A stretch of DNA of 64,000 nt from Moniliella sp. 'wahieum' (lineage: Eukaryota). The number at the start of each line of letters is the position of its first letter. Position 1 is the stretch's first letter. The translations under genes were made by a program, and so were the position numbers. The DNA is taken from positions 310,001 to 374,000 of the forward strand of contig RSEE01000039.1 in NCBI GenBank assembly GCA_003971905.1, written 5' to 3'. Positions 7,201 to 63,641 of the stretch are shown here, one piece after another. The notes beneath the pieces were generated by a model. That model saw only the letters and a list, made by a program, of their open reading frames with translations, had not been told where the DNA came from and searched no databases.

Positions 7201-9485
7201 CGGCTAGTGGTGTTGCCCAAGACTTGTGGGAGGCGAGCAAGGCAAAGGGGAGATGGTGGGGATGCAGTCAGGGGGGAGGCCGCCGGAGGCGCCACAGGGA
7301 CGGGCGGCACAGGGGCGGAACAGAGGCGGAACGGGGCCGCCTCGCACAAGACTGTCGCCCATCCGAGCTTCAACGTCTTCAGCCCGCTCGTCTCTCTAAC
7401 GGGGTGGAGCATGTCGAGGCCGAGGCTTGCCTCACCTCTCAGCGCCTCCGCCTCAGCCCAAGGCCTGATAGAATGATGCTCGTTAGGTATGCGGGTATTA
7501 ATACTCAGTAGTAACTCAGGACTCCAAGCACTCGTGTACTCTCACATGTACTCATGCATCATGCATCAGAACTCGGAACTCAGACTGAGTGCAGTCACTT
7601 ACTTACTATTCACTGGGACTAGAGGCAGTCACTAGTCACTAATCACTCTAGCTAGCCACAGATAGCAGATTTCCCCTACAGATCGTCTGGCTAGATCTGA
7701 GATTCTGACTATATACACTGAGATATAGTGAGTACCTGAGGACTAACATGCAACATTCAATAAAAGCACTTTGTGTTGTGGGCACACTCGATTACCTATA
7801 ACGGGGGCCCTAGTCAATTATCGAGGATGGTGTGTATCAGGGGGAGAGAGCGCAGGCAACCGGCAGCGACCGAACATGGACTTCCCCTTCTGGGCTTATA
7901 TGACAGAGGGGAGGGCCCAGATCGGACATCGTTTTCTACAACCTCTGTTATATGTTAAGAGGAGCCGCAGAGAGGCTGTGGCTGTGTTTGTTATTGGGCG
8001 TTTGGTCAGCGCTCAGCGAGCGCTGAGCTGCCTCTCTCAGCTGCCGACCGGGGATTGTGCCGCCCCTCTTCTCTTGCTTATTGTAGACGCTGCCACAGCG
8101 CCCGCCCATTGATTGGGACCGGTGGCCCGTGCAGTGATAATGATCGTCGACTACGCACCATGCATCATGCATCAGGATCAAAAGTGCTACGGGCTGCTAC
8201 GGGTACAACAAGGTATAGAGGCATTTCAACAGCGTACGTTCTTCAACGCTTGGACAACCAATGGGAATTTTTGATCAGGCAGAATGCAGAAGGAGTGATT
8301 GCCGAGCACGGCCGAAACGTAACACGGCCCATCATACGATGCGCACGATGCACATGACGCTGGTTCCCAATTAGCGTTCACACGTTCACACCCGACAGGT
8401 TCCTTCCCGAGCAGGAATGGCAATGGCTAATGAATTAATGATGCAGATGAATGACGTATAAGCCTAATGCACTCTGCTGCACTGCGTAGACACGGGACTG
8501 AGCCAGTGTTCAACGTTCAAGCAGCGCCGTTAGACACACCGGGATACCGCCTGATGCAGCCGAGCGCCCCAGAATGCGGCCGGCGGACGCGTGGGCGATC
8601 ATCGAGATCATCTCGATCATCGATCACCGATCATCAGTATGCAATCATCGATGCTTCTGCTGCAGCTCTAAAGCAGTTTGATCTTAGCTCGGGCTCGCAC
8701 GGCGCAAGTCACCGGCTCGACACTCGCCGTGGGCGGTGGCAGGATATCTCTGGGGTGCCTAGTCTGGTGCCTGTCCCGCCGTCGAAGCTGTCGCAACATG
8801 CGGCTGCATGTGCCCGCGTCCTTCCCGGCCTTCCCCCCGAATAGAGGGAGCTGTAAGAGGGAGCACCGCCCTTTTGCCACGGGGGGCCAGTTCATCCGCC
8901 ATGCCGTCATCGTGTTTGTGCTACGTCCCAGACTCCGGCACCCATCCCCTCCATCCCCTCTGTCCCACACCATTAACATTCGCATGCATCCATCTCGTCA
9001 GTGATCGCAATGATCGACTTGTTCAGCATCCTCGGAGACACAGCAGGCACAGCACTCTCCCAGCCCCCGCCCGCATATCTCTGCAGACCCTCGCGACCAG
9101 CAGTAGACGGACTGCTCGTGACGCGTGACGCAACAGAGCGGAAAGCTGAGCACAGAACTACTGACCGAGTGCTCACAAGTACTGTGTACGCAGTAGGAAT
9201 GTCCCAGCCAGCAGCAAACCAGCCCCCATCCGCTGCGCAGCCCTCCCGCCTACTGCAGACCCGGCTCACACACTGCCTCTTCATTCTTCTGCAATATAAG
9301 ACTGCCCCCTTCTTCGTCCGCAACTGGAAGTCGTCTGCTCTCCCCCATATCCTACGACACTAGCCCTCAGGCCCCCTTCTGCGCCTTGTCATTGCCACCA
9401 CCCCCGGCTCTCCCCCACTCGTACCTGCCCGTCCTCGTTCTACAGCATCCTTTCACCACTTTGATCCCCGCCCAGCTCCTTTACC

Positions 9486-11587: not shown

Positions 11588-13063
11588 ATGGGTAAGGAAA
11601 AGGTACGTCTTGCGTTTGGCTCCCTTCCCTCTTGGCCCAACTCCACCTCACCGCCAGTGTGGTCGACCAACGGATGCTAACCACCCTTCTTTTTCCAGCT
11701 TCACGTTAACGTCGTTGTCATCGGCCACGTCGACTCGGGCAAGTCGACCACGACCGGCCACCTCATCTACAAGTGCGGTGGTATCGACAAGCGTACCATC
11801 GAGAAGTTCGAGAAGGAGGCTGCTGAGCTCGGCAAGGGTTCCTTCAAGTACGCCTGGGTGCTCGACAAGCTCAAGGCTGAGCGTGAGCGTGGTATCACCA
11901 TCGACATTGCCCTGTGGAAGTTCGAGACCCCCAAGTACCAGGTCACTGTCATTGACCCCCGGCCACCGTGACTTCATCAAGAACATGATCACGGGTACCT
12001 CGCAGGCCGACTGCGCCATTCTCATCATTGCCGCCGGCACTGGTGAGTTCGAGGCTGGTATCTCCAAGGACGGCCAGACCCGTGAGCACGCCCTGCTCGC
12101 CTTCACCCTTGGTGTGCGCCAGCTCATTGTTGCCGTCAACAAGATGGACGCCACCAAGTACTCGGAGGACCGCTTCAACGAGATCATCAAGGAGACCTCG
12201 ACCTTCATCAAGAAGGTCGGCTTCAACCCCAAGTCGGTTCCCTTCGTCCCCATCTCGGGCTGGAACGGTGACAACATGATTGAGGCCACCACCAACATGC
12301 CCTGGTACAAGGGTTGGGAGAAGGAGACCAAGGCTGGCAAGGCTACCGGCAAGACCCTCCTTGACGCCATTGACGCCATTGACCCCCCCTCGCGCCCCAC
12401 CGACAAGCCCCTGCGTCTCCCCCTGCAGGACGTGTACAAGATTGGCGGTATCGGCACTGTCCCCGTCGGCCGTGTCGAGACGGGTGTGATCAAGCCCGGC
12501 ATGGTCGTTACCTTCGCTCCCGCCAACGTGACCACTGAAGTCAAGTCCGTCGAGATGCACCACGAGTCGCTTCCCGAGGGTCTCCCCGGTGACAACGTTG
12601 GTTTCAACGTCAAGAACGTCTCGGTCAAGGACATCCGCCGTGGCAACGTTGCTGGTGACTCGAAGAACGACCCCCCCATGGAGGCTGCCTCGTTCAACGC
12701 CCAGGTCATCATCATGAACCACCCTGGCCAGATCTCGAACGGCTACTCGCCCGTTCTTGACTGCCACACGGCCCACATTGCTTGCAAGTTCGACTCCATC
12801 CTTACCAAGATGGACCGTCGTTCGGGTAAGACCATTGAGGAGACCCCCAAGTTCATCAAGTCGGGTGACGCCGCCATGGTCAAGATGATCCCCACCAAGC
12901 CCATGTGCGTTGAGGCCTTCAACGAGTACCCCCGCTCGGCCGTTTCGCCGTCCGTGACATGCGCCAGACCGTGGCTGTCGGTGTCATCAAGTCGGTTGAG
13001 AAGACCTCCGGCAAGGGTGGCAAGACCACCAAGGCCGCTGAGAAGGCCGGCAAGAAGAAGTAA
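11588..13063 (+). CDS. TEF1: Translation elongation factor 1-alpha; intron 11603-11698; two apparent assembly indels (about 11957 and 12930)
   Basis: [74 protein letters not shown]-terminal [10 protein letters not shown]; strong codon bias. Confidence 0.99.
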
Positions 13064-13739
13064 GCGAGCTCCTTCGCCTGCTTTCCCCGGTCGAGTCGTC
13101 ATTTTGCCGGCTTGGCTTGGGCTTCATCAAATCCCCTTGCCCGAGAGCAAGCCTCGGAGTGTGCTTGTAAACCCCTGTCTTCCCCTGTCTTTGCTTTGGT
13201 ACCTGCCAACGCTAGGCTCGTATTGCATCGATTAGGTGTTACCTCTTTTCTCTCGTAGCCTGTTAGAGATCGGTTAGATGGTTTTAATCGGTGGCGCCCC
13301 AGCGCCGGCAGTATGAGCAAGCTGGATGTTGGGGTCTAGATGCTGGTGGCGCAGACGTGGCAACCTTAGTTGCGTCAATAATGTAGCCGGAATGGCGGTG
13401 GCGGTGCGCATACTCCTTCTAAAGAACAGTGAAAGAGTCCTGCTGCATGCTAAGGAGCGGTAGTCCTCGATATGCCATCCCGCCTTGTCGGTGAAGGGAG
13501 TGCGCCTGCTACTCTGGTTCGCCCACACACAACACCAAAAATGGTCAAGCATCGATCCGTTGCTGACTATGTATCGTGGGAAGTCATACAGCTGGCCCCG
13601 GCATGCCAAGGTTTGTGGTAAGGGAATAGGCGGGTGGGAGGGGGGGGGGCAAAGAGGCAAAGGAAGTGCAAGGGCAAACAAATGACGGGAAGGGAGGGTG
13701 GTGGCAGCGAGCCAGGGGGTTGCACAGGCGACGCATCCC

Positions 13740-17682: not shown

Positions 17683-20600
17683 ATGTCGGCCGAGGGCGCT
17701 GCGCTCCCCCAGCCGCCCCTCCTATCATACCGGCGGCAACGCTCCTATGATAGCAACACTGCTATGGTACCGGGTCTTGTCCAGAAAAGCCCCTGGGGCT
17801 CAATCAGAATCGATCATCGCTCACCCAGAGAAGCAAAGCCGCAGCCACACAGGGGGGCAGTCATTAGCCATTGGTCACCATCAGGCACACTCCCTGCCGG
17901 CGGGGAGGATGCGTAGGGCAACACTGGCATGGTGCCGGGCGGACATAGCTTGCGGCGCAGGCACGGCGGCGCAGGGCGGAGTGTAGGCGGGGGAAGGGGC
18001 GTGAATTCCAACGCGTGTATATAACGAGCACGGCCCCAGTGCTGCGTCAGTACGTTTCTTCTCCAATTTGGACTGTCCAGCGCCATTCAGAGGATCAGAA
18101 CTCGCACTTTTCCCTCGTGTTCTTCCCTCCTGTGCACCACCACCAACCCACCCCTGCCTGATCCATCGCACCCCGCTTCCTGTCCCCGCCCCATTCTCTC
18201 TGCCCGCCCCCCTCTGCACGCATGTCGTCCCCCCGACTACCGTGCTCCATCCCGCCCCCGGGTCCAGCCATCCACCCCCCCACCCAACACCAACCACCCG
18301 CCCCTCCGTCGCGGAGGTGTGAGCATCAAGGACGATTCTCGCCGCACCTGGATATGGACGAATAAGTGGGCTGTGCTCACGCCAACCACCTTGGAGTTGT
18401 ACAAGAACGAGGTGAGTACCATGACACCATCTGCTGCTGCATCCAGATCATCTATATATAAGGCTTTATACTGACTCGCCTGGTCCTTTTCGTTGCTGAA
18501 GACTTCCGCGGTACCCTCCCACCAGATCCCCCTCAGAACCTTATCCTCTGTAGGCCGTGTCGATCTCAAGCCGTACTGTCTCCAACTCCAAGACGACCAA
18601 GACAAAATTCTCAACCTCCAAGTCCGCACCGACGAAGACGCATACGGCTGGATCGATGCCATTTCATCGGCCGCTCGTGCTGTGGGCGGACTTCGTCCAG
18701 CCTTGGCTGAAGGTGGTGTAAGCGAAGTGAGTTTACCCACGGGCTTTCGTCACAACGTCCACGTCGGATACGATGCCACGGCAGGCACCTTCACCGGACT
18801 CCCGCCTGAGTGGAAGTTGCTCTTGTCTAATTCGAGCATCACGGCCGCCGAGTCGCAAAAACACCCCATGGAGGTCTTGGCTGCAATCGACTTTTATCTG
18901 TGTGATGGGGAAGGTCAATCCCCCGAACTGAACCATACTCAACCGTCTTCAGGTACTCCTGTTTTGTCATCGCAATCCCCGGCTACTGCACCTCCTTTGG
19001 CAGCATCGGAAACCTCCGCCACTGCTCGTGCACAGCATCCACTATCAAACGATGCACTACTGAGCCACCCTCCACTGTCGAGTCGCCCTCTACTGTCGAG
19101 CCACCCTCCACTGCCGAGCCACCCTCCACTGCCGAGCCACCCTCCACGTCCACTTCTTCAACTACTGCGCCCAAAAACTCTCAGCTGCTTGAACCATCTA
19201 CTCCCCCAACCTCCACCGGGCACAATGAAGCTGGCTCTTTAGTTGAGAGCCCTGCGGTTCGTACGAGTAGCAAAAGCAGTTTGCTAACAAGTGTACCTTC
19301 TGTAGAAGGGCCTGCACAAGGAGACCATGAAACGACCAACAGTGTGCTTGAAACTCGCCCCTCGCCATGTACCCCGCCGCACCAGTACCTCACCTCAGCT
19401 GTGGTTGCAACACCACCTTCCATCCACACCCCACATCCCCCCGTCGACCGTCGGCGTCATGGGCGAAAAAATTCTCACAGCTGTCTCGGTCGAGCGTTCA
19501 CCTAATCAGTTCGGGATTCAAGTCACCACCACGCCAGGCGTCCGATTCGACTGGTGGAACTGCTCCTCCTATTAGTCATTCAGCGCTATTCGCGGCCCAA
19601 AACGCAAGTGGCAGTGCCTCCCCTGCTCTGATCGGATCAGAGTCTCCTTTGACTTTCTGTACATCACCTGGAACAACATCCAGCCCCCAATTTCTCTCCT
19701 TCTCCAAGTGGGCCAAGCTCCCCTACTCGGCCCTCTCCTCTAACAAGGAGCTTATCATTCCTCCTCCATCGGTCGATCAAACCTACTCCCAAATCAGCCA
19801 AAGAAGCCAAACGATTGTCGCCTCCTGCGTTCAACGGCCCTTCCTCTGATAAATGGTCTTCCGACCGTAGTTCCATGCCACGTTCGTCGTCCTCCTACCA
19901 CGGTGAAGGCAATATATTATCAGCAAAGGAGGCTACCCCTTTTCCCCAACCCCAATTCCGACGGTCCCATCACGTCCCTTCTATGAGCGCGGGGGCTGTC
20001 TGGCCATCAACCACGACCTCTTCATCAGCAGCCACCACCAAGACTGTCCCTGCCCTGGTCCCGGCTTTGAAGCGGTCCGTATCAGCGCAAGGTCAAAATC
20101 CCATTGCAGCGAAAGATCATACCAAGTTAGCTCTACACTCCGTCACAAGCTCCCCCAGCCGCCCTTACGGGCTCATTTCTCACCGTCCCGCACCTCCTGT
20201 ACCAACTTCTGCGACTCCTAGTGGCAAACCCGCAATCACCGTTCAGAAAGGTGTAGCACTTCCCACTCAAAGGAGCCGAACGAATGCGCTAAAAGGGTCG
20301 AACTCGACCAAGCCCACGGCGGCAACCACTGCGGCAACCACGGCGGCAGCCGTAGTGGCCAAGAATCCTCAGCCCAAATCGAGCACTAATGTACCTGATC
20401 TCGCCCTCGTGCCTTCATTTTCCTCCTCTCTTACGCCCCAGTCTTCCCGCCCGTTTCCCAGTGGATCGGTAGTGCGTTCCAAAGCTACTGCACCCCATCC
20501 TCCCCCTACCCAGGGATGGCAGCGGTACGATTCGCCTCGCCGTCGCCACGAGGTGGTAATAAGCGAGGCCCAAGTGGTCCATTTGCTGCAGCGCATGACC

Positions 20601-21637
20601 TCACCAAACCACCGGAAACAATCTACTCTTCCTTCCGCAAGGTAGGACAAGGCGCTTCGGGAGCTGTGTTCCGCGCGCAGACTAAAACAGGTCAGAAAGT
20701 TGCCATCAAGTCCATGCCTTTGGCCAAGCAGCACCGCCCCACTTGGTTCTGAGTGAACTGATGGTGCTTCGGGCTGCTGCACACCCGAATGTGGTCAAGT
20801 TTGTTGCGGCCCACCTAACCTCGACTCCTAGCGCGGACGATCCGAGCAAAAGAGCAACGAATAACGCAGTTGGTTCCATCTCCAACTCCAATTCGAACAC
20901 GAAGACGAACACCAACACCAACTTGGATGGTAGGGAGGCCTGGTGCCTTTGGGTTGTGATGGAGTTCATGGACGGTGGGGCTTTGACCGAGGTGATTGAT
21001 GCCCACGAGCTCTCCGAGGAGCAGATGGCTTATGTGTGCCGCGAGACGGCGCGCGGCTTGGCCCATCTTCACGCTGGCGGTGTGATTCATCGCGACATCA
21101 AGTCCGACAATGTGCTGCTGTCCCAGCGGGGTGAGGTCAAGATTACCGACTTTGGTTACTGTGCAACTCTCACCCCATCGCGTCAACGGCGGGAGACCAT
21201 GGTTGGAACACCTTATTGGATGGCTCCGGAGGTAGTCAAACAGCGCTTATACGGACCCGAGGTTGATATCTGGGGGTTGGGAATCATGACAATTGAGATG
21301 CTGCAAGGAGAACCGTACGTGACCCCATCTTTCTCTCTCACCTGTCCCCAGTACCTGTGGATGTTTTGAATTGACCATTTGCCCTGATTTTGCAGACCTT
21401 ACTTGGATGAGGACCCTCTTAAGGCCATCTTTCTCATTGCTACCCAAGGCACACCGCTGCTTCGTCATCCAGAGGTGCAGCCCTTTGCTGAAGGATTTTC
21501 TGGCAGCTTGTCTCACGGTGGATGCGAATGCTCGTGCTACAGCCACGGAGTGTACAAACCACCCGTTCGTGCGCCTCGCTTGCAGCGCCGAACATATGCT
21601 CCCCCTCCTCGACTTCAAACAGGTTAATAGAGCCTGA
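17683..21637 (+). CDS. CLA4: Cla4/Skm1-type PAK kinase (PH + CRIB + kinase); start uncertain; introns about 18412-18500 and 21315-21396
   Basis: PH ([35 protein letters not shown]), CRIB ([24 protein letters not shown]), kinase ([58 protein letters not shown]). Confidence 0.9.
19059..19148 (+). repeat. 18-bp coding tandem repeat, about 5 copies, inside the PAK kinase linker
   Basis: gagccaccctccactgYc repeated (EPPST[V/A] or SHPPL[S/P] depending on the true frame). Confidence 0.85.
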
Positions 21638-22347
21638 TGGTTTTCATTTGTTTGCTCCTTGCCTGTGTGGTGAGAAGCTTGAAAAAGCCGTGGATACACC
21701 ATCCTCTCTCTCACTATCAGCCGCCCTGTTGCCTTTGGATTTACCTTGCACCTCAAAATCAAAGTGTTGTATTCAACACCTTGGTGCCCGTGCCCATGCC
21801 CACGGTGCACTACTCCTCACCTTGCTGCTTCCACTAGTATACGTCCCTCTGGTGGCGATATAGGGTGTGGCAAGCACGGTCTTTTTTTCTTACCCTTCCC
21901 TACATCCGATCCTTTCGTCATTTTGATGGTTCCCCTCATCTTGTCCCACCCGCCCCCTGCCCATACGTCATCTATACCCCCCACATACGAAGATCCCTGC
22001 CTTCCATTGAACCGGTACACGAACCCCATTCTCTCTTCGATCACCATCTTGACTACTGTATCAGCTTTCACTTGTGATGGACCTGTCGAGGACCTGACTC
22101 CAGCCGTGCATACTTAAAAGGGAGAGCATCCTTTGGGGTATTCTCTCTTTACTCCTTTCACACTGTTGCCACGAGAAAGACTTTTGTATGCGTCACGTCC
22201 TCCCATACGACCTCAAATCGATGTATCTTCTACGGATTTCGCTGGTTTTGCTTCTCGTCATCTGCTTTGTAGTAGGCAGATCAAACTCGCTGCCCTGTGA
22301 CGCCTCTGAAAAGGGCCATCGCTCTCGTAGATAGTGATTCCAAGGAT

Positions 22348-24409
22348 CTAATTCTTCTGTGCCAGCCGTGCCAGGACAGAGCAGAATTCCTTGGGCGAGA
22401 CAATCTCCGTCGCCCCATAGGTGATCTTCTTGGGCACACCTCCCTGGGCAGAAGACGTCCGCTGCTCGTACTCGCGCAAGTTGGCGTACTCGACATAGCT
22501 CCCCCCACCGACGACAAACACAACTGCGTCATTGTGGCCCGCGGAAGTAGCAGGCATCGAAGTATCAGCCACAACACGCCGTTTGGGGTCGAGGTAGGTA
22601 GAGGTACTTGTCCGACTCGGTACGGGCTTGGGCCGACGCATGCGCAGGTTCCATCAGCGCCTTGACCAATCGCGTCACCGTCTCGTCCTTCTGGGCTGGG
22701 AGGAAATTCTTCACGCCCGCAACTAGGTTTTCGAATCCAGAATCTTTCAGTCGCTCCCCTAGCGTCCTGCCCAGTGCACCGAACCCCTTGAACAGATCTT
22801 TCCCTTGAGTTGAGGGAGGTGCTGGTGCCGAGGCCAACGACATCATGCGAGCTGTTTGGCGAATGCTGAAGAGAGGCAAGTGTCAGAGAGTGATCAGAGA
22901 GCAACAAATGAGGGGTGGGGGTGGGGGAAGAGTACACACCTTTGAACATAACGCAGTGCAGCCAAATCCGCTCCAGCCGCGGTCAAGGCATCTTCGAACG
23001 TCTTGAGCTCGGTGGGCGTCAAGTCGACGGGGCTGGAGAGAGATAGAATATCAAAAAGAGACGGAGCTTGTCTTGGGCCGCTCCGGACCAGGCAGTGTTC
23101 TGGATAGCATCGAGCACAGTCTTTGAGGTACGTTGCGGATGCCTTCCTCGATTTGGAACAACTCGTCCAACCCTCGGTCACGGATGCCTTGCAGTAAGGC
23201 GGTGGCAATATTCATATGAGCGTCCAGCACCGTCTTGCGCGCGGTGAGTGCTGGAAGGGCTGTGTAATCGCTGCTTTCAAGTGGAGAGCATTGTTGCCCT
23301 CAAGCGAACTGACATCGTCCATCGGAGAGATGCCAGTCTTGCGGGTAAGCTCTGCCGCGTCCGCCTTGTACTTACTCAACTCCTGGTCAATGTCGGCAGC
23401 AACCTCAGGGAACGGCTGGACAACATTTTTCGTCCAAAAAAAGTCCTTGCCATCCAGGTCGTATGTCTTCGCCTTGCCCCCTTGCTCCGAGGCAGAGGAA
23501 CTGACTCGGTTCAAGTGGAGCTCCAGGACATCGTCCACCAGCGCTTGATACGTCCAACTATGGGCGAGCATGGGGACCAAGTCCACATCCCTATCCAAAG
23601 CAAGAGTAATGGTCGCTGAGATACCCACCCCTCGGCCCCAGATCCAGAGGAAAAGAGGTCACTAGCTCCCCGAGTGGAGGTGAGATGAGAGCGTAGGAGT
23701 TCATCCAGCTCGCGAGCCACGAGCTCGGCAGCGTTCCCCGCCGGTGCGCGAATGATGGGAACACCCCCCCCTCGAGTAGCTAGCACGCTGAAGAGGCCAC
23801 GAGCGATGCGACTTGCTTCGGCGCGAACCGCCTCCTCGCCAGCGCTCGAAGAATAAAGGACTTCGTACGTGTTCCGTTTTTGTGGGGGAGGGAGCAGCTC
23901 AAAGAGGGAGTTGTCTAGTACCACAAAGTCGAGGTACTGTCGAATACTTGCTCTACTCCTGCCCCATCCGACTTGGCGGCAACTATGCGGTGCAATTCAT
24001 CAGCTGCACGTCGGAGAGGGCGAGATAAAGTTGACAAGAGATCGATTCGTAGGCGGCCCGAGCTAGATCCTCGGCAATACGAGTAAAGTTGGCGGTGGTA
24101 GGCGACGACAAAGTAAACGGCCGGCACGTCGGGAAGCGGCGGGCGGTCAGAATGAAGCTGAAGATGGAGAGTGACGCCAGCCTGACGCAGGTCCTGGACG
24201 GTCATAAGGGGCGCGACACACTTCCTGGGCGGCGCTGTCAAGCACGAGGACCTTCCAGGACGGGGCGGCAGCGGCGGCGTCGAGGCCAGCAGAGGGCGAA
24301 GGCGTTTGCCATCTCGCCGGCAACAGCCTTGATGCGCGCTTCGGGACTGGGCGTGTTTGCCGTTGAGGAGGGCGAGGAGCGCGCCCACCTGGGCTTCGCG
24401 CAGCGACAT
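22348..24409 (-). CDS. SLY1: Sec1/Munc18 family protein Sly1 (several indels; intron near 22880-22940)
   Basis: [129 protein letters not shown]. Confidence 0.95.
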
Positions 24410-24718
24410 GGTGGAGCCCAAGACGGCGGGCGGACGCGCGGGCGTGCCGGCGCCAAGGCCGATGTGGGCGGCCGCGGCGGCTGGAGGCGCGGGGGGGCGA
24501 CGTGGAGACTGGAGGCAGGGCGACTGACGTCAGCCGGCTCAGTGCGGAATTGAACAGTTCAACGCTGTGAGGCTCCGCGTGCAATGTTCAAAATGTCGAT
24601 CATCGTCTACAATGCTCCACGACGCGATGCGTGCTGTGATCGATGATCGCCCGCGGCAGTGCACCATCTCGTCTCGCCACCACCGCCGCCTCCCACCGCC
24701 TGCTCTCCCTGAACCGCC

Positions 24719-37588: not shown

Positions 37589-38587
37589 TTAGGCCTCCTC
37601 GGCTTCCTTGGTGGTAGCCGGCGCCGCCGCCTCGGCAGGGGCAGCCGAGGCAACGCCCGGGACGGTCTCGGGGGAAGCAAAGATGGAAGCCTTGCTCGAG
37701 AAGAGACCAAAGCGTTCGTAGTCGACACCCGAGACGCAGAAGACAAGTAACACAGGGAGAGGGACTTGGCAACCATGTCAAGCACACCGTAGTAGATGAA
37801 CTCGCCGTCGGGGGAAATGACGTTGCCGCCTTCGGCCATCGCCCAGGCAATAATATACACCACCGTCCACACGGCAAAGCCAGTAACAACGGGAAGGTAC
37901 GCCCAGAACACATCCTTGCCCGCCTTCCTGCAAGCCAGCAGCGCCGGGCCAAACAGCACCCATAGCACGCCCGACATGGCCGCCACGCCAATCGTGAAAT
38001 AGCCCCACTTGTAACTGCTGGCAGTCAGGGTGCCACCCAGGGCACAAAGTACAGCGACCGTCTCAACGAAGACCGTCATGAAGATGGTCGAAAGGGGAAC
38101 GGGCGAGACAAGAAGAATGGCAATGATAACAAAGGGGGTCGAAATAAGCCAGTCAAGGTAGCGCGAGAGCCTAAGAACACCCAACTGTTAGGATAACCGT
38201 GACATGGAAACAGGAGCGAACATATATGACGAGAACGCCGGATAAAAACGTACCAAACGGCCCGCGTCGCGGCATGGTTCGTGCCGCTGCCTTTGCCCGT
38301 CCAGGAGCCCGAGCGGAACTCGACCGTGACAGGGAGCCCGCCGATGTCGGAAGCAAGCGTATACCAGTTGAGCATGCTGCAGGCCAGGGTAGCAGCCACG
38401 AGGTAGTTAAAGGTACGGTGACCACGGTTCACGGAGAAAATGTGTACAACGACAAGCCCAAAAAGACAACGGCTTGAACCGCAAAGACGGCCCAGGCAAA
38501 GTCCGAGCCGTGCGAGTTGACAGTGACATCGGCGGCGACGGGGTTCGTCTTCACCGAGTCGCGTGGAGAGAGCCAGGCGTCAGACAT
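37589..38587 (-). CDS. Microbial (type 1) rhodopsin-family 7-TM protein, paralogue A; intron 38171-38253
   Basis: GSDFAWAVFAV, W|LSRYLDWLISTPFVIIA (helix C), SSYKWGYF, YIIAWAMAEGGNVISPDGEFIYYGVLDMVAK (helix G DxxxK). Confidence 0.9.
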
Positions 38588-41500
38588 TGTAGTGTAGGCA
38601 GCTGAAGGAAAGAAAAAAAAGGCGCGCAAGGGGGTGTGGTGAAGAACGGGTGGGGAAGCAGCGAGAGGAGTTGGCTGGGTTACTGAGGTGGTAGGGGTAG
38701 AGGGAAACGCGACGAAAGCCGGTGTATGGGGGGATGGGCTGGATGGGACGGAGGGGGGGCAAGTATATATATCCCATGGACCCAATTAATGTGGGCCTGT
38801 GTTGGCTACTCTACCATCAGTCGTGCGCAGGCCGAGGCAGAGAGTGCGGTAGATCCTGGCGGGCAGGGGGCAGCTGGGCTATGGCTACCGTAGTAACTCG
38901 ATGCCGTCGGGTGGCTCCGCGCTGCTCAACAGCCAGGATCCTGGCAGGACGTGCGTGATGGGAGAGCCGGGCACGGAGCTTCAGTATGTTCTTCCTCACA
39001 GGCGCCTCGGCGATGGATACAGTAGTGCCAAGCGCAAACCGACCATAAAGCGCTCGGGCCTCGGGCCCAGTGCGGATGGGTGCTCTCCGCGCGCTCATTA
39101 CTCAGTAGCTGCTTCTGCCCCGACTTTCTTGCCGCGCCTTCACACAGACTTCACTTTCCAACCCTCGGTCCCGGGAGCAGGCCGGCAGGGCGTAGCAGAC
39201 CTAGTATTGCCCAATGGGTCAACAATGTTCTCTAGTCATTAATAGTCACTCTTCAAGCTTCACTACGTTCTGAGCGCCGATCCTCTCACAGGGCTGCGCC
39301 GGCCGAGCGCAACAGCATTCGGGCCACTCTTGCCTCCATTGCGGGTTGGGTCGGGATGGGCTGTAGGCCTTTGTGAGCTCAGGCCCTCAGGCCCATTCTC
39401 ATGTAGCGCGCTGCGCTTGAGCAAGGTAGCAGCACATGCCCTGGGGAAACACTGACATCTGAGAGGTGATGTACTGGTGCGCCGCGAGGCCGAGGGGCAT
39501 ATGGATGGACATGAACAATGTGATGAAGATTCACATATTCACAGGACTCTTCATGCACCTTATACGCACTTCCTGATGGACAACCAGTCAACGTCAACAC
39601 GTTCCGCGCCGCGGCTCCAGGCTGATCCGCATCGTATCCACACGGACCAGGAGTGGGCACATGCGCCCCCCGGGTCGCGGGTGGAAAAGGTCGTCAGATC
39701 CAGACCTCAGACATGAGCATCACAGAATGAACATCAGTGCATCAGCAGGGGCATCAGCATCATGAACATCCACATGAGCATCAGCGGCTGCCCTAGGATC
39801 CCTGGGCCCTCTCCCCGTACCCACATTAGATCACGCCAGTTTGTGTTATACCCTGTGAGATTGGAGGATCTGAGGTCTGCCGCATGCAGCTAGTAACTAG
39901 TAACTAGTAGTACAGCGTGAAGGCCAGCGCAATATGAGTGCTGCGCTCAGGCTGAGCGCTGCCTCACGGGCGTGTGACATGGGACGTGTGATATGTGGCA
40001 AGACAGTGTCACATGCCTGGCGTGTCACATGTCAGGGGACAAGCATGCGGGGTGTGTGCGGAGACTTTTTTTTCAACAGGACAGCCACCTGGGGGGACTT
40101 TTTGCGCAGACTCAGCATGAAGAGTGACTAGTGACTGAGACTCAGGACTCCGTGTTAGTTGAACGTTGAACGCTGAGTTGAGTACTCACACTGTACGCTC
40201 AGCCTGAGCGCTCAGTCTGAGCGGCTGAAGCTGCACTCAGCGCGCAGTGCGCACCCAGCACTGACTATGCTCTGGTACACTCCCAGCCCCCAGCCTCGAC
40301 GCCAATGGCCGGATTTTTTAGATGCAATGAGGCCAGAGGAGGTGTGGGGCGCGCGCTTAAAAAGCTTCTTCACGAAAGCTGTCGCGTACCGTGCTTTCGA
40401 CGGAGACAAAAAGAGGTCAATTCGTCAAGCATTCGATTTCTTCCATGCATTCGGTCTCCTTCGCCATATGTGTACAGCACGTGCACTGGTGGGTGTGTTC
40501 GCGGCTTTCTTCAGTCTACAGCCAAAAATGATGAATTAGTTACTAGAAAAAAGTGCTGACATAGTGTGCGACCTGAAGAGTCGATAACAATGGTACTGAA
40601 TTGAAGCTCGGTCCAACGGTCTGAAGAGACGATAGGAAACATATGGACTGTAAATTCAATACTACACTTTGGGACGTTCAAAAGGAGGACAGGAGACGGG
40701 TCTGGACGGGAACAAGACGTGAACAGACGGCTGCATTTTTCAATCCAAGGAGAGCGGCGAGAAACGATGTATGTCACTCATGTCATTAAATCATGAATGA
40801 TGAATCATTGGCGGCCTCCACAAAAGGGGGCAGGGGTGTGGCAGGATGTGGCCGGGGGGGAGGGATCTGTAGATGGATCGGTCACCTAAACGTAGCGCCC
40901 ACTTGCGAGAAGCGGAGGCAAAAGGGGACGTGTGATGTTTGGGCTATGATATAGGAACGTTGGCGTGCAGACTACTAGTCACTAATAGTCAAGCTACTCA
41001 CCAACCACACTATATAGTTAGTCCCACGCGCAGCCTCGTTCGGCTCCGGTTCGCTGCCAAGCCGCAAGAGCAGGCAATAGCGCCGACCAGCGCCTAGCGC
41101 CTAATAACCGGCAACCCACGTCACTGTGTGACGTGAAGGGTGGTGGGACAGTGAGCGCTGAGGCGCTGAGGCCTGAGGGCCAGTGTTGTGCAATTAGGTT
41201 CTCCACAAAGTACGACAAAAATGTTTTCGGCCCGACCTCATCCGGCGCCATCCCCTGCTGCCTCCTGCCGCACTCGGTTCTGGTGGACAGCCAAAGTGGC
41301 GTGACATGTGACATGTGGCATCTACCCGGCCTGCGATAGATGACAGTGATATTGACCGCGCCACACAGCGTTTTCAACCGTCTTCTCGGAACAGCCAGTC
41401 GCACACCTCATATATGGCCTCGGCCTCATATCCCAACCCGTGTGACAGCGTCATGATGCATGATGTGAATGATGCATGAGTGCATGAGATGAGAGCCAAC

Positions 41501-42963
41501 GAGCACATCCATCACTTGTGTTATCAATTTCCTCGGTTCTGCCCAAGAGGTGAAGAGCACACCTTTGTTTGCCTAAAGATTGAATCGAATTCAGCATCGT
41601 TGAACTCCTCTGCGTTCGTAAAACGCACTGGAAGGCCTGCGCACTTAGGATTAATCGATAAAGGAACCCTGCGCTCATATATCACGTCCAGGCTCTCACT
41701 CTCGCAGCCACCGAGTCTTGAGACTCAGGCCCTCAGCTCGCAACAGAAGTAGTGAGAAAACATTCATTTTTGTGTGATGGGATCGATGAAAACCGATCAA
41801 GCTTCAAGACATGCTGTTTTGGGTTTGCGCAGCACTAGATGCTATTATTTTTTGTGGTGCTGCTCTGGAGCCAGCTTCGTTAGGTGCACTTGATGGAAAG
41901 TATGACAAGGCAACCGTCAACGCGTCAACGGGGCGCGCCGTCCCCACTCGCACACACAATGTGTGAGACTCGTCCCCATCAGGCCGACAAATGCGAGGGC
42001 CCCACCCTCTGCTCTTTCCCAGGGTCGGAGGCCTGAGGCTCAGGCCTGCCATGCCTGACAAAATCGAGATGACAGCATGAACGGCACATCCTCACACAGT
42101 GGCATCCGTGCGAATTATACTACGCCAAAATAGGAAGTCCCCCTGTGTGCGTCCAGCTCCCGGTCTTTGTCTGTGAAGCTACAGCGCGGGAGACCCGTGC
42201 GAAAAGGGCTTCAAGCTTCGCATGTCATACGCATGTTATGCATCATGCACCATATGTATGCCAACGCCATCCGCAGAGCACTGCGCGGTGTCATATAATA
42301 ATGCGACAATACTTGTGCGTACGAGACATCCCGTATTCTTGGCCCCCAAAACGTCTCGTATAGTAATCAACGTTCAACGAACGATGTGCATGCTGAGTCC
42401 GGTCAACGAGCGGGTGTGCTGTGCATCTTTCTGAACGGGGGAGTCGCCAAGCCACATCTCCATCATATCATGCGCATCATGTACTTTTTCACCGCACCCA
42501 CAACATCAATGGGAGCCAATCGGTAGGAGTCATCGAAGTCATCACGCCGACATAATTCGACATCCGTCCTGCGCTGTTCGTGGCATGGCTCTGGGACTGC
42601 CAGAGGATGCGCGATGGTATACGGATGTGAGACCCAGAGCAAAGGGGATGTTCGCCACCACCCCCAGCCTCTCGATCATCGATCCTGCGAGGGACCTGAT
42701 CCACAGGGCGCGAAAAAAGATGTACATACACCCACATGTGCGTTGTACAGATCTGAGGCCCGAGGCCTGAGAAGGCGCAAATCGTAACGCGTAAACCGTG
42801 AACTGCATCTACTTCTTCACTGATACCTACTGAGGTATGTTGGGATTTTCCTTTAAGCCGACGCCCCTGATCAACGCCGTCCCGCAAAACGAGTTCCCCT
42901 TCCACCACCATCTGATCATTCCTTCCGTGTCCGCCTTTCGTTCGGTCGCATCTTACCATCAAC

Positions 42964-43923
42964 ATGCCCTCCCACATCCCTGGATCAAGTCCGGTTCTCA
43001 CGAACCCTGCCTCTGCTAACGTGACCAACACGTACAGGGGTCGGACTTTTCATGGGCGATCTTCGCTGTGTCCATGCTTGTCTTTCTGTTCACTCTCGCC
43101 TACACTTCCTTTGCAACAGGCACGGGGAAGCGGACGTTCCACTATCTTATCGTTGCAGCCCTTGCGTGCAACACCCTCAACTGGTTTGCCATTGCGTCCA
43201 ACCTAGGTGCCGTTCCCGTCACTGTCGAGTTCCGATCCGGCTCCTGGACTGGACACGGCAACGGATTGCACAATGATGCCACCCGTTCAATCTGGTACGT
43301 TTCGTAATCATTCACCTTATTGGATTCTGTATGCTCACCCCCCAGCTCGATTCCTCTTCAGGATCTCTCGGTACATTGACTAGCTCGTCTCGACGCCTTT
43401 CATTCTTTTGGCGATCCTGCTCGCGTCGCCTGTCCCCCTCTCTACCCTTTTTATGACCATCTTTATTGAGACAGTGGTGGTGGCGCTGTCACTGTTTGGT
43501 GCTTTGACGCCCAGCTCGTACAAGTGGGGTTGGTTCGTGCTTGGTCTTTGTGGCTTGACATGGGTGTACTGGGTCCTCTTTGGCCCGGCTCTCCTTGCGG
43601 CTAAGAAGGCGGGCAAGGATGTGTACTGGGCATACCTGCCCATGAGCATTGCGTTTGGTGTATTTGGCATCGTGTACATCATTGCTTGGGGCGTCTCTTC
43701 GGGCGGAAACAACATTGCTCCGGACAGTGAGCAAGTGTACTACGGCGTTTTGGACCTGCTCGGGAAGCATGTGCTGCTTCCGTACCACGTCTACAACATC
43801 TCGTCCGTGGACTACGAGCGCTTTGGCTTGTTCTCTGCCAAGGCTTCCTTGTTTGCTGACCGGTCTTTGCCGCCCGGCGAGGCTTCGGGCGAGCCTGGTG
43901 AGGGCAAGGCTAATACGGCTTGA
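42964..43923 (+). CDS. Microbial rhodopsin-family 7-TM protein, paralogue B; intron 43295-43361; in-frame TAG at 43381-43383 (pseudogene, base error or recoded)
   Basis: GSDFSWAIFAV, VPVTVEFRSGSWTG, W|ISRYID*LVSTPFILLA, SSYKWGWF, GGNNIAPDSEQVYYGVLDLLGK, VDYERFGLFSAKAS; colinear with paralogue A. Confidence 0.85.
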
Positions 43924-60357: not shown

Positions 60358-61535
60358 TTAGGCGTCGTAGCCCCACTTGACTTGCGAGGAGCCCGAGGTG
60401 ACAATGTTCTGGTAGGCAGTGCCGACAGCAAGGAAGTTTTCGGTAGTGTCGGGAATCCACTCGACGACCTGGGCCTTGTTCGTCTTGCCGTCTGCGACAA
60501 TGGTGATCCACTTGCCACAGGCGTCCTGCAGCTTATCGTTGGGGTACGCAGCTGAGGGGCCGACGGCGGCTGTGATGGTGTTCTTCTCGACCTTGATGCC
60601 AGGGCACCATTCAGGGTCAATGTCGTCCCACCATTGCAGTGCCGTCGTGTACATAGCCTTCGGTGTATCCGATGATGCCTTGCCCGACGCTGCCGGGGCC
60701 ACCGCCGAGGACGACGACGACGCCGATGCCGACGCGGGGGCCTTCACGTGCTCAAACTTGGAAGAGGCGGCTTGGCTGGACGATGCAGACGCGGAACTAG
60801 ACTTTGAAGAGGACGAAATGGTGGGTCCGCAGGGGGAAGGAGTACCATCATCGAACGACCACTCGACATTGAAGAGGCCAAGCACATGGTTGGCCAGCTT
60901 ACCGAACAGACCGTACGTCAGGTCAATGTCGCAAGCATTCAGGCAGGTTTGCGTCGAGGCTGCGTCGATTCAATGCAATACCAGTCAGATCGTCTACAAA
61001 GCAATGTACTTGTGTGTGAGGAAGAAGGGGGAGAGGGTAAACGGAACGTACGCGACTCGGGGCATTCATCCATAATGCGAGCCTGCTGGGAGCCAAGGAT
61101 GCCCTTGATAGTGATCGTCTTGAAGCAGAGCTCCTCGCGGCTAATGCCTTGGTCAGCAAAGTACTTGTATCCCGGTGTGGCCAGAGCGACACCCATCTGT
61201 ACCCGGCCCAAGAGTCAGTACCAACAGCGCATCGGCGAGCAAAGCATACGGACCGTGTTGTCGTTCATGTCGGGACCACCGCAGGAACCCTGGGCCGACT
61301 CGCCCTCGGTCTGAGGGTGGTAAAAGGTGGCCTGGCCCTGGATCCCACGGGCAGCGACGCGGGCAGCCAGCGTGGCATTCTTGGCAATGTACTCGTGCCG
61401 GCCCGGGCGGGGGGCGGGGGCACGGGGATGCTCAAAGTGACGGCCAATGACGTGGTGGTTGGGCGCGTGGTGGGCGGCCAACGCACTGGTGGCGCCAAGC
61501 AGGAGAAGGAGGGAGGTAAGGACCGTGGGTGCCAT
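60358..61535 (-). CDS. Secreted protein with two DPBB (RlpA/expansin-like) domains, paralogue A; introns 61197-61253 and 60960-61051
   Basis: Signal peptide MAPTVLTSLLLLLGATSALA; GQATFY..GSCG, CFKTITI..ARIMDECP..CDIDLT..F; Ser/Ala linker; second domain WC..ACGKWITI..AQVVEW. Confidence 0.8.
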
Positions 61536-62636
61536 GTCGACCGACAGAAAGAGGGTGGAGACGCGGGGGGAGGGGGAGGGGGCGAGGGGTGGTGGGGGCT
61601 GGGAGGAGGGGCCGCAGGCGACGGGGCAGCTCCCGAGCTCGGCTGGCATGGAGGCCGCGGCGGAGGGCAGCACTGCCCCGTAGACACAGTGGCCTGCGCC
61701 CCATCTGGCTGCCATACTGCCCGCCTGCACGCCTTGTCGATCCATGCGTGGTGCAGGCCCAGTAGGCGTGTGCTGAACGTTCAGCTGAACAATGTGCCCT
61801 GTCTGCCTGCGGGCACTGCGTGGTACTACTGCTCGCGTTCGGCGAGCGGGACAGTGACGCGGGTGGCGGTCACCTGACCAGGCGGTCAGCGGTCCCCGCG
61901 TAGCTCATGCATCACTGCATCACCGGGCTTGGGCGCCCCTGCACCTCTGCTGAACCGGTGATCGCACGATGAGATCGATGGTTTCGATGCCCGGAAGCCC
62001 GCAGACATGTGGAATGTTCAAATTTCATGGCATTCGGGCTTTCATCGATTTCATCGGTCGTTCGTCGATCGTTCATCGTCCGACTTGCTCAGACACCCGA
62101 ACCGCCTCAGCCCCGGGACGGCTGCGGGCAGCCGGGCACACTGGGGAGGTGCTGCTGCGCCGAGTGGTTGCGTGGAGGTGGTCGACGCCACACTGGGCGG
62201 CTGCCCCGCCGCGAACAGCGTGCGGCGCCAGTGTTCCTACCGTTGCGCCCCCCCCGAGCGGCCACCGCGATGGCCCCGCCACACTCGCCTCCTGCCCGCC
62301 CCGTCCGCCCCCCGTGCCCCGAGCTCATCGGGGGCGGCCAATGCTGTGCCGCCAGAAAAGGTGGCCATTCAGCACAGCGTCTGTGTCCGCCAGCGGGACC
62401 CTCCTTGGGCAACCCTCGTTGCCAGACGGCACACCTGGTCGCCAGTATATAATGCACCGGTCTGATCTCCGCCCAAGCTGTTTGCCTCCCCATCCGTCCC
62501 CTGCCCTCCTCAACCACCCCCGACTGCACGCTGGCGTGTATCGCGTTCTTCCATCCCTCCCATATCGCATCACTCCGCCCCTCCCGCTTCCCTTTAACTC
62601 TACCCCACCCCCCCCAGCACCTCCTTGATCCACACA

Positions 62637-63641
62637 ATGGTCCGCTCCGTCCTTGCTACTCTTCTCCTTGCCCTGGGGGCAAGCCAAGTCTTTGCTGGAC
62701 ACCACCCACAGCAGCGCCGTGCTCTGGGTTCGCGCCAAAACATCCATGCCGCGCACGCTGCCCGCCGTGCGGACACCAAGCCTGAGCGTCACGAGTACAT
62801 TCGCTCCAACAGCACATTGGCCGCCCGCTCGGCTGAGCGCCGTGACAACCAAGGCCAAGCTACCTTTTACCGTCCTGCCTCGGAGGGTGGCTCCCAAAGC
62901 TCGTGCGGCCCATACATTTCCGACAGCTCCAATGTTTTGCCTTGGCGCAGGCTGGCTGGGATTACTTTGCGAGCCAAGGCATCGACCAACAGTCTCTCTG
63001 CAACAAGGAGATTACCATCCAGGGTCCTTTCGGTTCTCAAACGGCCAAGATCCTTGACACGTGCCCTCCCGATTCGTCGACGAACACGTGTGGCAACATG
63101 TGCGACATTGACCTGACGTACGACCTCTTCGGGTTGCTGGACAACTACGATGCAGGTATCTTCAACGTTCACTGGTCTTTTGCCGATGGCACTCCGTCTC
63201 CTTGCGGCCAGGGATCGTCGTCTTCGTCCTCGTCGTCCTCTTCCAAGGCGTCTACGCCTACCCACAAGTCGGCTGTGGCACAGCCTACCGGCTCGTCAAG
63301 CTCGTCAGGTTCTCCTGCCCCTCGTCTTCGTCATCTGGTTCTTCTTCGACCTTCTCCACCGCCCTGCAATGGTGGGACGACATCGACTCGCAATGGTGCC
63401 CTGGAATCACCATCCCGTCCGGCGCTGTTCAGGCGGCTGTGGGCCCAACGAGCCAATACTCTAACGATGACTTGTCCAAGACCTGCGGCAAATGGGTGAC
63501 GATTGACGCTAACGGCAAGAAACTCAAGCGATTGTCGTTGAATGGGTTCCCAACTCGAGCCAGAACCTCCTTGCTGTCGGCAACCCATACAACGACATTG
63601 TTGGCTCCGGCAGCGGCTCAGTTACCTGGAGCTTCAACTAA
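62637..63641 (+). CDS. Secreted protein with two DPBB (RlpA/expansin-like) domains, paralogue B; intronless, a few indels
   Basis: Signal peptide MVRSVLATLLLALGASQVFA; GQATFY..SSCG, CNKEITI..AKILDTCP..CDIDLTYDLF; Ser linker; TALQWWDDID..WCPG..TCGKWVTI..VTWSFN*. Confidence 0.8.

What the first reader, a model, noticed from the sequence alone, without database searches (positions are those of the whole stretch)
37589..43923. Head-to-head pair of fungal rhodopsins with Schiff-base Lys but a non-canonical D-S-A helix-C motif
Seen, by manual alignment to bacteriorhodopsin RYADWLFTTPLLLLD: both read RY(L/I)D(W/*)L(I/V)STPF(V/I)(I/L)(I/L)A, so positions 85/89/96 are D/S/A. Helix G keeps D212 and K216 equivalents (LDMVAK, LDLLGK). 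Helix F has YIIAW rather than YPxxW and lacks W182 in register. Established: fungal proton-pumping rhodopsins have a carboxylic donor at 96 (DTD/DTE), and Hsp30/Yro2-type opsin-related proteins lack the Lys; DSA occurs in xenorhodopsins, which have Pro at 212. These fit neither fungal class. They share one intron at the same position and phase (inside the Trp codon), so they are an old local inverted duplication. No carotenoid/retinal synthesis genes are in the window. Inference: slow-cycling sensors, altered transporters, or intermediates toward retinal-free opsin-related proteins.
Basis: partly seen in the sequence, partly recalled or inferred. Interest (0 to 1): 0.7.

Follow-up and report, generated by a model that had tools for sequence, protein, structure and literature searches.

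The report
Fungal opsins with eroded retinal pocket
Two back-to-back genes of a smut-related fungus encode relatives of light-driven proton pumps that keep the lysine which binds retinal but have lost the proton donor and half of the retinal pocket, in a genome where no retinal-making enzymes were found, so they look like opsins on the way to a light-independent job.

Summary
Observation confirmed. Both genes are type-1 opsins with D85/S89/A96, D212 and K216. They also lack W182 (Thr/Gly), P186 (Ile) and M118 (Ala/Val); the register is gapless against a smut opsin and CsR. The TAG at W86 of gene B is unresolved. The pair is not unique: the genome holds 11 D-S-A copies (three paralogue types), and four Logan clusters belong to the clade. 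The clade (100/100) groups with D-T-T, pocket-intact basidiomycete opsins (99/100). 'Fits neither class' overlooks UmOps3 (Lys kept, Ser donor, no current) and 25 of 55 Lys-bearing hits lacking a DTD/DTE motif. No canonical opsin, phytoene synthase, lycopene cyclase or retinal-forming oxygenase was found genome-wide; a divergent CrtI and photolyases were. Best reading (0.5): retinal-independent, ORP-like membrane proteins that keep the D85-K216-D212 core. Rival (0.27): non-pumping photoreceptor using scavenged retinal. New variant of a known kind. The scan noted this clade before on another piece of this genome (e1-7650078).

The parts
38254..38587 (-). Opsin A, exon 1 (N-terminus, helices A-B, BC loop); one base missing in a T run at about 38439 relative to the C15 copy
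38171..38253 (-). Opsin A intron, 83 nt, GT-AG, phase 2 inside a Trp codon
37589..38170 (-). Opsin A, exon 2 (helices C-G and tail): D85 38154, S89 38142, A96 38121, D212 37779, K216 37767; one base missing at about 37745 relative to the C15 copy
38588..42963 (.). Shared divergent upstream region, 4376 bp. It does not align at length to the other sub-genome, but both carry 3 CTCAG-N-CTGAG palindromes (0 of 200 simulations reach 3 in either)
42964..43294 (+). Opsin B, exon 1; -1 frameshift at a G run near 43028-43040, shared with the C15 copy and absent from the C8 and C23 copies
43295..43361 (+). Opsin B intron, 67 nt, GT-AG, same position and phase as in A
43362..43923 (+). Opsin B, exon 2: D85 43378, TAG at W86 43381-83 (TGG in the C15, C8 and C23 copies), S89 43390, A96 43411, D212 43753, K216 43765

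Best explanation
A and B are expressed, functional seven-helix membrane proteins of a small D-S-A opsin clade confined to a deep smut-fungus (Ustilaginomycotina) lineage. The clade arose from a donor-less, pocket-intact CarO/Ops3-like rhodopsin (D-T-T type). After the lineage lost carotenoid and retinal synthesis and its pumping opsins, the polyene/ring half of the pocket was remodelled (T89S, M118A/V/T, L178F, W182 to small residues, P186I/V). The buried D85-K216-D212/R82 ion network and the extracellular E204 side were kept. Most likely they now work without retinal, like the opsin-related proteins Hsp30/Yro2/Mrh1, in plasma-membrane proton or weak-acid homeostasis. K216 would act as a structural or titratable salt-bridge partner, not as a Schiff base. 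Shown: fold, residue changes, phylogeny, purifying selection, absence of matches for the pathway enzymes. Inferred: expression, lack of retinal binding, membrane location and the stress role.
For: Pocket residues kept in canonical DTD/DTE hits (W182 28 of 30, P186 30 of 30, M118 27 of 30, T89 30 of 30) are replaced in all 10 clade members tabulated (T89: all 7 that cover it). Several replacements vary freely: 182 is T/G/A/V/L, 118 A/V/T, 122 G/A/S, 215 A/G/S/F. P186 is kept even in 32 of 36 Lys-less rows. Positions 6.50, 6.53 and 6.54 are well conserved in characterised rhodopsin clusters (PMC13739731 passage; mapping to W182/P186 is my count from Y185). Own genome: no RPE65/CCO match (2 of 14 control genomes ring). 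All 7 SQS_PSY matches lie at five loci that read as squalene synthase or NDUFAF6-type, not phytoene synthase (family names from my reading of the translations). No CarR lycopene-cyclase domain (3 of 14 controls ring). All 8 PF01036 matches and all 31 matches to a DTE opsin fall in the 11 D-S-A loci, so no canonical pump was found. dN/dS is 0.04-0.27 in all 12 pairs. Other fungal clades keep K216 with eroded pockets, some without D85, so Lys alone does not prove retinal binding. Yro2 is a plasma-membrane acid-stress protein (PMC10139380 passage).
Against: The Schiff-base half of the pocket is invariant: R82, Y83, D85, W86, T90, P91, Y185, W189, E204, Y208, D212 and K216 in every member covering the site, apart from the TAG in window B, across a stem of 0.79 substitutions per site. 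Elsewhere D85 and K216 go together (D85 in 48 of 55 Lys-bearing rows but 2 of 36 Lys-less rows), which is the pattern expected if a Schiff base is still made. Absence of enzymes in an indel-rich assembly is not proof. A divergent CrtI-like gene is present (pieces of 82 and 118 bits, cut-off 238), and so are photolyase-family genes (9 matches). Host plants have been proposed as a retinal source for smut opsins (PMC6467936 discussion). No expression data were found, and the stress role rests on analogy only.
Confidence: 0.5

Rival explanations
1. Non-pumping, probably blue-shifted photoreceptors like UmOps3, using retinal taken from the host or substrate. D85 accepts the Schiff-base proton; with Ala at 96 reprotonation is slow and a long-lived state signals.
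For: Twelve Schiff-base-side residues are invariant. D85 and K216 are retained together. The nearest relatives are pocket-intact D-T-T opsins. UmOps3 has Ser96, no current, and is expressed in planta (PMC6467936). Photolyase-family genes show that light biology persists.
Against: W182, P186 and M118 are lost together, and 118, 122, 182 and 215 drift. No retinal pathway and no pumping opsin were found, though pumps should persist if retinal were available. No transducer or effector domain is seen: the C-tail is short and low in confidence in the model.
Confidence: 0.27
2. Retinal-bound, light-gated passive proton leak or very slow pump. S89, A96 and the opened W182/P186 side of helix F would loosen the cytoplasmic switch.
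For: D85, D212 and E204 are kept, and E/D194 is kept in types A and C. D-S-A occurs in inward-pumping xenorhodopsins (PMC13739731).
Against: It needs retinal (same objections as above). Xenorhodopsins have Pro at 212 and lack the proton-release group, whereas these keep D212 and E204. UmOps3 gave no current.
Confidence: 0.1
3. K216 still forms a Schiff base, but with a different and probably shorter aldehyde (a plant apocarotenoid or fatty aldehyde). The proteins would be covalent chemosensors whose three paralogues differ at the ring end of the pocket.
For: The Schiff-base half is invariant while the distal half is remodelled. Invariant new residues S89, A96 and F178 suggest selection rather than mere decay. 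Paralogue-specific residues sit at 115, 118, 122 and 182.
Against: There is no direct evidence and no known precedent among microbial opsins (recalled). Drift explains the distal variation as well.
Confidence: 0.08
4. The genes are decaying pseudogenes, since both window copies are broken as assembled.
For: 10 of 11 copies carry at least one break (27 frameshifts and 1 stop). The B frameshift is shared by two copies. The TAG is a substitution, and substitution errors look rare here (1 non-synonymous change against 8 synonymous ones between window B and C15 B).
Against: Both breaks in A are absent from the 98%-identical C15 copy, which has others of its own. Only one break position is shared between copies. 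EF1-alpha is broken at about 11957 where the C15 copy is not, and AGT, SLY1 and PCT1 show 8, 24 and 3 gaps between the same two copies. dN/dS is 0.04-0.27. One copy (C8 A) is intact at 311 aa. The TAG may still be a real null allele of this one copy of B (roughly even odds).
Confidence: 0.05

Closest known systems
UmOps3 (UMAG_04125) of Ustilago maydis; probable Melanopsichium counterpart P0019 (SNX86346.1, D-T-S, K216; orthology inferred, not tested)
   Same: Smut-fungus CarO/ORP-like opsin with D85, D212 and K216 and no carboxylic donor; UmOps3 gave no photocurrent (PMC6467936 passages). 37% identical and gapless over 161 residues to P0019.
   Different: P0019 keeps T89, M118, W182 and P186, and U. 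maydis makes retinal via Cco1. The D-S-A clade is not sister to P0019 but to the unnamed D-T-T proteins P0007 and P0013.
Opsin-related proteins Hsp30 / Yro2 / Mrh1 / ORP-1
   Same: Same fold family, no donor, eroded pocket; the likely functional analogue (retinal-free, acid stress; PMC5796164 and PMC10139380 passages).
   Different: They are defined by lack of the Schiff-base Lys. Here K216 and D85 are invariant, and the clade does not group with the Lys-less rows in either tree.
CarO-like and LR/Nop-1-like fungal proton-pumping or slow-cycling rhodopsins (CarO, UmOps1, UmOps2, LR, CsR as structural match)
   Same: Fold: best structural match CsR 6gyh, rmsd 0.9 A over 141 columns, then LR 7bmh (model of helices C-G only).
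   Different: No carboxylic donor at 96; T89, M118, W182 and P186 are replaced; G116 is Thr or Ile, not the CarO-type Trp/Glu.
Xenorhodopsins with the DSA motif
   Same: The same three letters at 85/89/96 (PMC13739731 section 9).
   Different: Xenorhodopsins have Pro at 212 and no proton-release group; these have D212 and E204 and nest among fungal opsins. The shared motif is convergent.

Membership tests
Microbial (type-1) rhodopsin family | Bac_rhodopsin sequence profile and helical bundle | tested here: met
   PF01036 above cut-off for both genes; model of exon 2 pLDDT 86.9, rmsd 0.9 A to CsR; helices A-B not modelled
Microbial (type-1) rhodopsin family | Schiff-base Lys216 with counterions D85 and D212 | tested here: met
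   K216 and D212 codons in 11 of 11 genome copies, D85 in 10 of 10 scored (one masked next to a frameshift)
Microbial (type-1) rhodopsin family | Conserved polyene/ring pocket (W86, M118, W182, Y185, P186, W189) | tested here: not met
   W86, Y185 and W189 kept; M118, W182 and P186 replaced in 10 of 10 members
Microbial (type-1) rhodopsin family | Covalent retinal binding and a photocycle | not testable with these tools
   needs expression and spectroscopy
Outward proton pumps (DTD/DTE; LR-like, CarO-like) | Carboxylic donor at 96 and Thr at 89 | tested here: not met
   Ala96 and Ser89 in all members covering the site
CarO-like (auxiliary ORP-like) clade | Phylogenetic placement among CarO/ORP-like fungal opsins with Lys kept | tested here: met
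   Groups with D-T-T proteins (99.1/100) among basidiomycete DTE/DTS opsins, away from the DTD LR/CsR-type rows. Deeper nodes are weak; only a few rows carry names
CarO-like (auxiliary ORP-like) clade | Trp or Glu at BR G116 | tested here: not met
   Thr or Ile (alignment, translations); UmOps1 also departs (Leu)
Opsin-related proteins (Hsp30/Yro2/Mrh1/ORP-1) | Absence of the Schiff-base Lys | tested here: not met
   K216 invariant
Opsin-related proteins (Hsp30/Yro2/Mrh1/ORP-1) | Retinal-independent role in acid or membrane stress | not testable with these tools
   No expression or phenotype data; indirect support from the missing pathway genes
Xenorhodopsin | Pro at 212 and no proton-release group | tested here: not met
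   D212 and E204 in 10 of 10

The most novel reading that the evidence does not exclude
A microbial opsin clade whose conserved Lys still forms a Schiff base, but with a non-retinal aldehyde from the environment. That would turn a light-driven pump scaffold into a covalent chemosensor, with three paralogues tuned to different ligands, in a fungus that makes no retinal.
Probability: 0.08. Interest if true: 0.85.

Novelty: new variant of a known kind. Interest (0 to 1): 0.47.

Why it matters
How fungal rhodopsins repeatedly turned into retinal-free opsin-related proteins, and what those proteins do, is an open question. This clade offers a graded series that can be expressed and compared: DTE pump, D-T-T pocket-intact sister, D-S-A Lys-keeping form with an eroded pocket, and Lys-less ORP. 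It sits in a genome where the retinal pathway and the pumping opsins were not found, while three paralogues are under strong purifying selection. One reconstitution experiment would tell whether K216 can outlive retinal binding. That matters for the common practice of calling any Lys-bearing opsin a photoreceptor. Interest is held down because donor-less, Lys-bearing fungal opsins are already known (UmOps3) and are frequent in databases.

Tried and rejected
Sequencing runs for gene A: none was listed, so the breaks could not be checked against reads and no RNA holder was listed. A-to-I editing or stop read-through of the TAG was considered and set aside: the three other B copies have genomic TGG. 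The Blh/BCD search was uninformative because nothing rang in the controls either. Metagenome scan: 174 pattern matches, none confirmed. The Atlas search gave only generic Bac_rhodopsin clusters. A second word search with the clade alignment added no new member beyond the four Logan clusters; 14 hits, no named clade member. The search with P0007 timed out. NCBIfam had no family for the opsins. STRE, Haa1-like and Crz1-like motifs were not enriched upstream. A xenorhodopsin origin was rejected (D212, tree). The genus of the host was not determined. No full-length structure was predicted (only exon 2, helices C-G), and the tools gave no residue-level pocket geometry.
Full report
**1. What is in the sequence.** Two opsin genes face away from each other across 4376 bp. 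Gene A is on the minus strand (ATG 38587, stop 37589) and gene B on the plus strand (ATG 42964, stop 43923). They are 62% identical in DNA over 839 columns. Their second exons match PF01036 above the curated cut-off. Each has one GT-AG intron in phase 2 inside the Trp codon three residues before R82 (83 and 67 nt). Helix C gives D/S/A at bacteriorhodopsin (BR) positions 85/89/96, and helix G has D212 and K216. BR numbering is by alignment to canonical hits and solved structures; the standard roles of the BR residues are partly recalled and partly from PMC13739731 section 9.

The register holds. The intact copy on contig C8 aligns without a gap over 161 residues to the Melanopsichium opsin P0019 and without a gap to CsR. 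A model of its exon 2 (helices C-G, pLDDT 86.9) superposes on CsR at 0.9 A over 141 columns. In this register the helix-F Trp of gene A is at 181, BR 182 is Thr (A) or Gly (B), and P186 is Ile. Against this, phmmer aligned that Trp to W182 with a one-residue gap versus LR and archaerhodopsin-3. The Trp is absent from B and from two Logan members, so it is not constrained like W182 in either register.

**2. Breaks.** As assembled, A has two -1 frameshifts and B has one plus a TAG at W86. The genome (69.5 Mb, 223 contigs) holds 11 copies: four head-to-head pairs (C39 = window, C15, C8, C23) and three single genes (C15, C26, C43). Together they carry 27 frameshifts (23 of -1, 4 of +1) and one stop; one copy (C8 A, 311 aa) is intact, and only one break position is shared between copies.

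Both breaks of A are absent from the 98%-identical C15 copy, which has others of its own. EF1-alpha in the window is broken at about 11957 where C15 is not. AGT, SLY1 and PCT1 show 8, 24 and 3 gaps between the same two copies (the SLY1 stretch may include introns). dN/dS is 0.04-0.27 in all 12 pairs compared. The frameshifts are therefore most likely assembly errors. The TAG is a substitution found only in this copy. Since substitution noise looks low, it may be a real null allele in a four-copy background; I cannot decide, as no runs were listed.

**3. Host and copy structure.** A one-gene tree of the neighbouring aminotransferase (31 sequences, 389 columns) places the host in Ustilaginomycotina, on a long branch outside Tilletia (1.00) and outside the Ustilaginales/Violaceomyces group (0.95). 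Identity to named smut proteins is 68-73%. The genus was not determined. The window is 86-96% identical in DNA to C15 and 70-87% to C8 in coding stretches, which suggests two sub-genomes with two haplotypes each. The three paralogue types (A, B, unlinked C) predate the split of the sub-genomes (dS between types 1.5-1.9; between sub-genomes 0.67-1.1). B branches first and A groups with C (78.8/92), so the pair is old but A and B are not each other's closest paralogues.

**4. Relatives.** Only four further clusters, all from Logan and unnamed, belong to the clade (59-80% identical). The HMMER scan of 1.84 billion representatives found 932 hits at E<=0.001, of which the best 150 were examined. 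I aligned 171 sequences (160 from databases, 11 from the genome) and kept 117 for the tree: those with at least 150 of 248 core columns, plus four short clade members. A 45-sequence subset was re-run in IQ-TREE. The D-S-A clade is monophyletic (100/100, stem 0.79) and groups with two unnamed D-T-T proteins, P0007 and P0013 (99.1/100), which keep M118, W182, P186 and K216. Around them lie basidiomycete DTE opsins (Acaromyces), the D-T-S Melanopsichium protein, and several Lys-less groups; deeper nodes are weak.

Of 91 database rows with residues at 85, 182 and 216 and Asp at 212, 55 have K216. Of these, 30 are DTD/DTE and 25 are not (DTA 5, DTT 4, DTN 2, ETA 2 and single others, including one clade member and one poorly aligned row). 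Donor-less, Lys-bearing fungal opsins are thus common, and one is characterised: UmOps3 is CarO-like, has Ser at 96, gave no current, and is expressed in planta (PMC6467936 passages). Its supplementary alignment was not read, so its residues at 89, 182 and 186 are inferred from P0019.

**5. The pocket.** Across 10 clade members (7 cover helix C), R82, Y83, D85, W86, T90, P91, Y185, W189, E204, Y208, D212 and K216 are invariant apart from the TAG. Background invariance is 56 of 134 columns. T89 is always Ser, D96 always Ala, L178 always Phe. Position 118 is A/V/T, 122 G/A/S, 182 T/G/A/V/L, 186 I/V, 115 E/S and 215 A/G/S/F. In 30 canonical DTD/DTE rows, W182 is kept in 28, P186 in 30, M118 in 27 and T89 in 30. 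So the Schiff-base half is intact, while the polyene/ring half is changed and partly drifting. D85 accompanies K216 elsewhere (48 of 55 Lys-bearing rows against 2 of 36 Lys-less rows; some of the latter may be truncated rows). This is the strongest argument that a Schiff base is still formed.

**6. Retinal supply.** In the whole assembly there was no RPE65/CCO match. The seven SQS_PSY matches lie at five loci that read as squalene synthase (three) or NDUFAF6-type (two), not phytoene synthase. There was no CarR cyclase domain, and the Blh search was uninformative. A divergent CrtI-like gene is present on C19 and C14, below the family cut-off and not clustered with other carotenoid genes in the 10 kb read. 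Photolyase-family genes are present. No canonical opsin was found: every match to PF01036 and to a DTE opsin lies in the 11 D-S-A loci. These are searches of an error-rich assembly with a loose first look, so absence is likely but not proven. U. maydis makes retinal via Cco1, and host retinal has been proposed as a source.

**7. Mechanism.** Most likely (0.5), loss of the retinal pathway removed the pumps and released the pocket of a donor-less Ops3-like opsin. That opsin was kept, triplicated and held under purifying selection for a light-independent membrane role of the Hsp30/Yro2/Mrh1 kind, such as acid or proton homeostasis (Yro2 role from PMC10139380 passage; clade definitions from PMC5796164 passage). 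K216 would persist as a salt-bridge partner of D85 and D212. The fold, residues, tree, selection and missing enzyme matches are shown; lack of retinal binding and the stress role are inferred. Rivals: non-pumping photoreceptor with scavenged retinal (0.27), light-gated leak or slow pump (0.10), Schiff-base receptor for another aldehyde (0.08), pseudogenes (0.05). The shared upstream region carries three CTCAG-N-CTGAG palindromes in both sub-genomes despite no long alignable sequence (0 of 200 simulations reach this; the motif was picked after inspection). This suggests regulated co-expression, by an unknown factor.

**8. Comparison and novelty.** It works most likely like an opsin-related protein but is not a member, since the Lys is present. 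It is a member of the type-1 opsin family and the CarO/ORP-like branch by sequence and tree. It is not a DTD/DTE pump and not a xenorhodopsin (D212 and E204 kept). Searches for a description in print found none: 'DSA motif' + rhodopsin gave 0 papers; xenorhodopsin + DSA gave 1 paper, about xenorhodopsins only; some searches were seen as listings and showed no such clade. The library lacks most subscription journals. Papers seen: PMC6467936, PMC5796164 and PMC10139380 as passages; PMC13739731 as passages and section 9, part 1 of 2; no supplements.

**Verdict:** new variant of a known kind; interest 0.47.

Noticed in passing
whole window versus G000 contigs C15, C8, C23: The region exists in four copies: one about 86-96% identical (C15) and two more distant (C8, C23; 70-87% in coding stretches; dS about 0.7-1.1). 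This suggests a hybrid with two sub-genomes, or two related diploid/dikaryotic genomes assembled together. Squalene synthase was found at three loci.
   Followed up: partly
window 11700-13070 (EF1-alpha), 21900-24500 (SLY1/Sec1), 20500-21900 (PAK kinase): Housekeeping genes carry frameshifts; the assembly has a high single-base deletion rate, so broken genes in this genome should not be read as pseudogenes without reads.
   Followed up: yes
G000:C19:90100-92400 (L050, L055) and C14:278800-279900 (L056): Divergent CrtI (phytoene desaturase)-like gene with a C-terminal hydrophobic segment, below the family cut-off, in a genome where phytoene synthase was not found; a possible relic or repurposed desaturase.
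   Followed up: partly
window about 39946, 40198 and 40211: Three CTCAG-N-CTGAG palindromes and an excess of CTGAG/CTCAG words between the opsin genes, also in the C8 sub-genome, but not upstream of the single type-C genes.
   Followed up: partly
L032:914-2379 and L033:3-2264: The unlinked type-C opsins lie next to a P-type ATPase gene (SERCA-like by my reading of the translation).
   Followed up: no
window 60361-60969 (-) and 62598-63496 (+): Two similar Cys-containing, Ser-rich, apparently secreted proteins in opposite orientation; they recall RlpA/expansin-like proteins (recalled; no Pfam match).
   Followed up: no
window 5308-7541 (-): Broken frames that recall a Helitron-type replicase/helicase (recalled; no Pfam match).
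   Followed up: no
proteins P0035, P0058, P0059, P0102, P0118 (also P0114, P0141): Other fungal clades that keep K216 but have lost W182 and M118, some also D85: independent Lys-keeping degenerate opsins.
   Followed up: no
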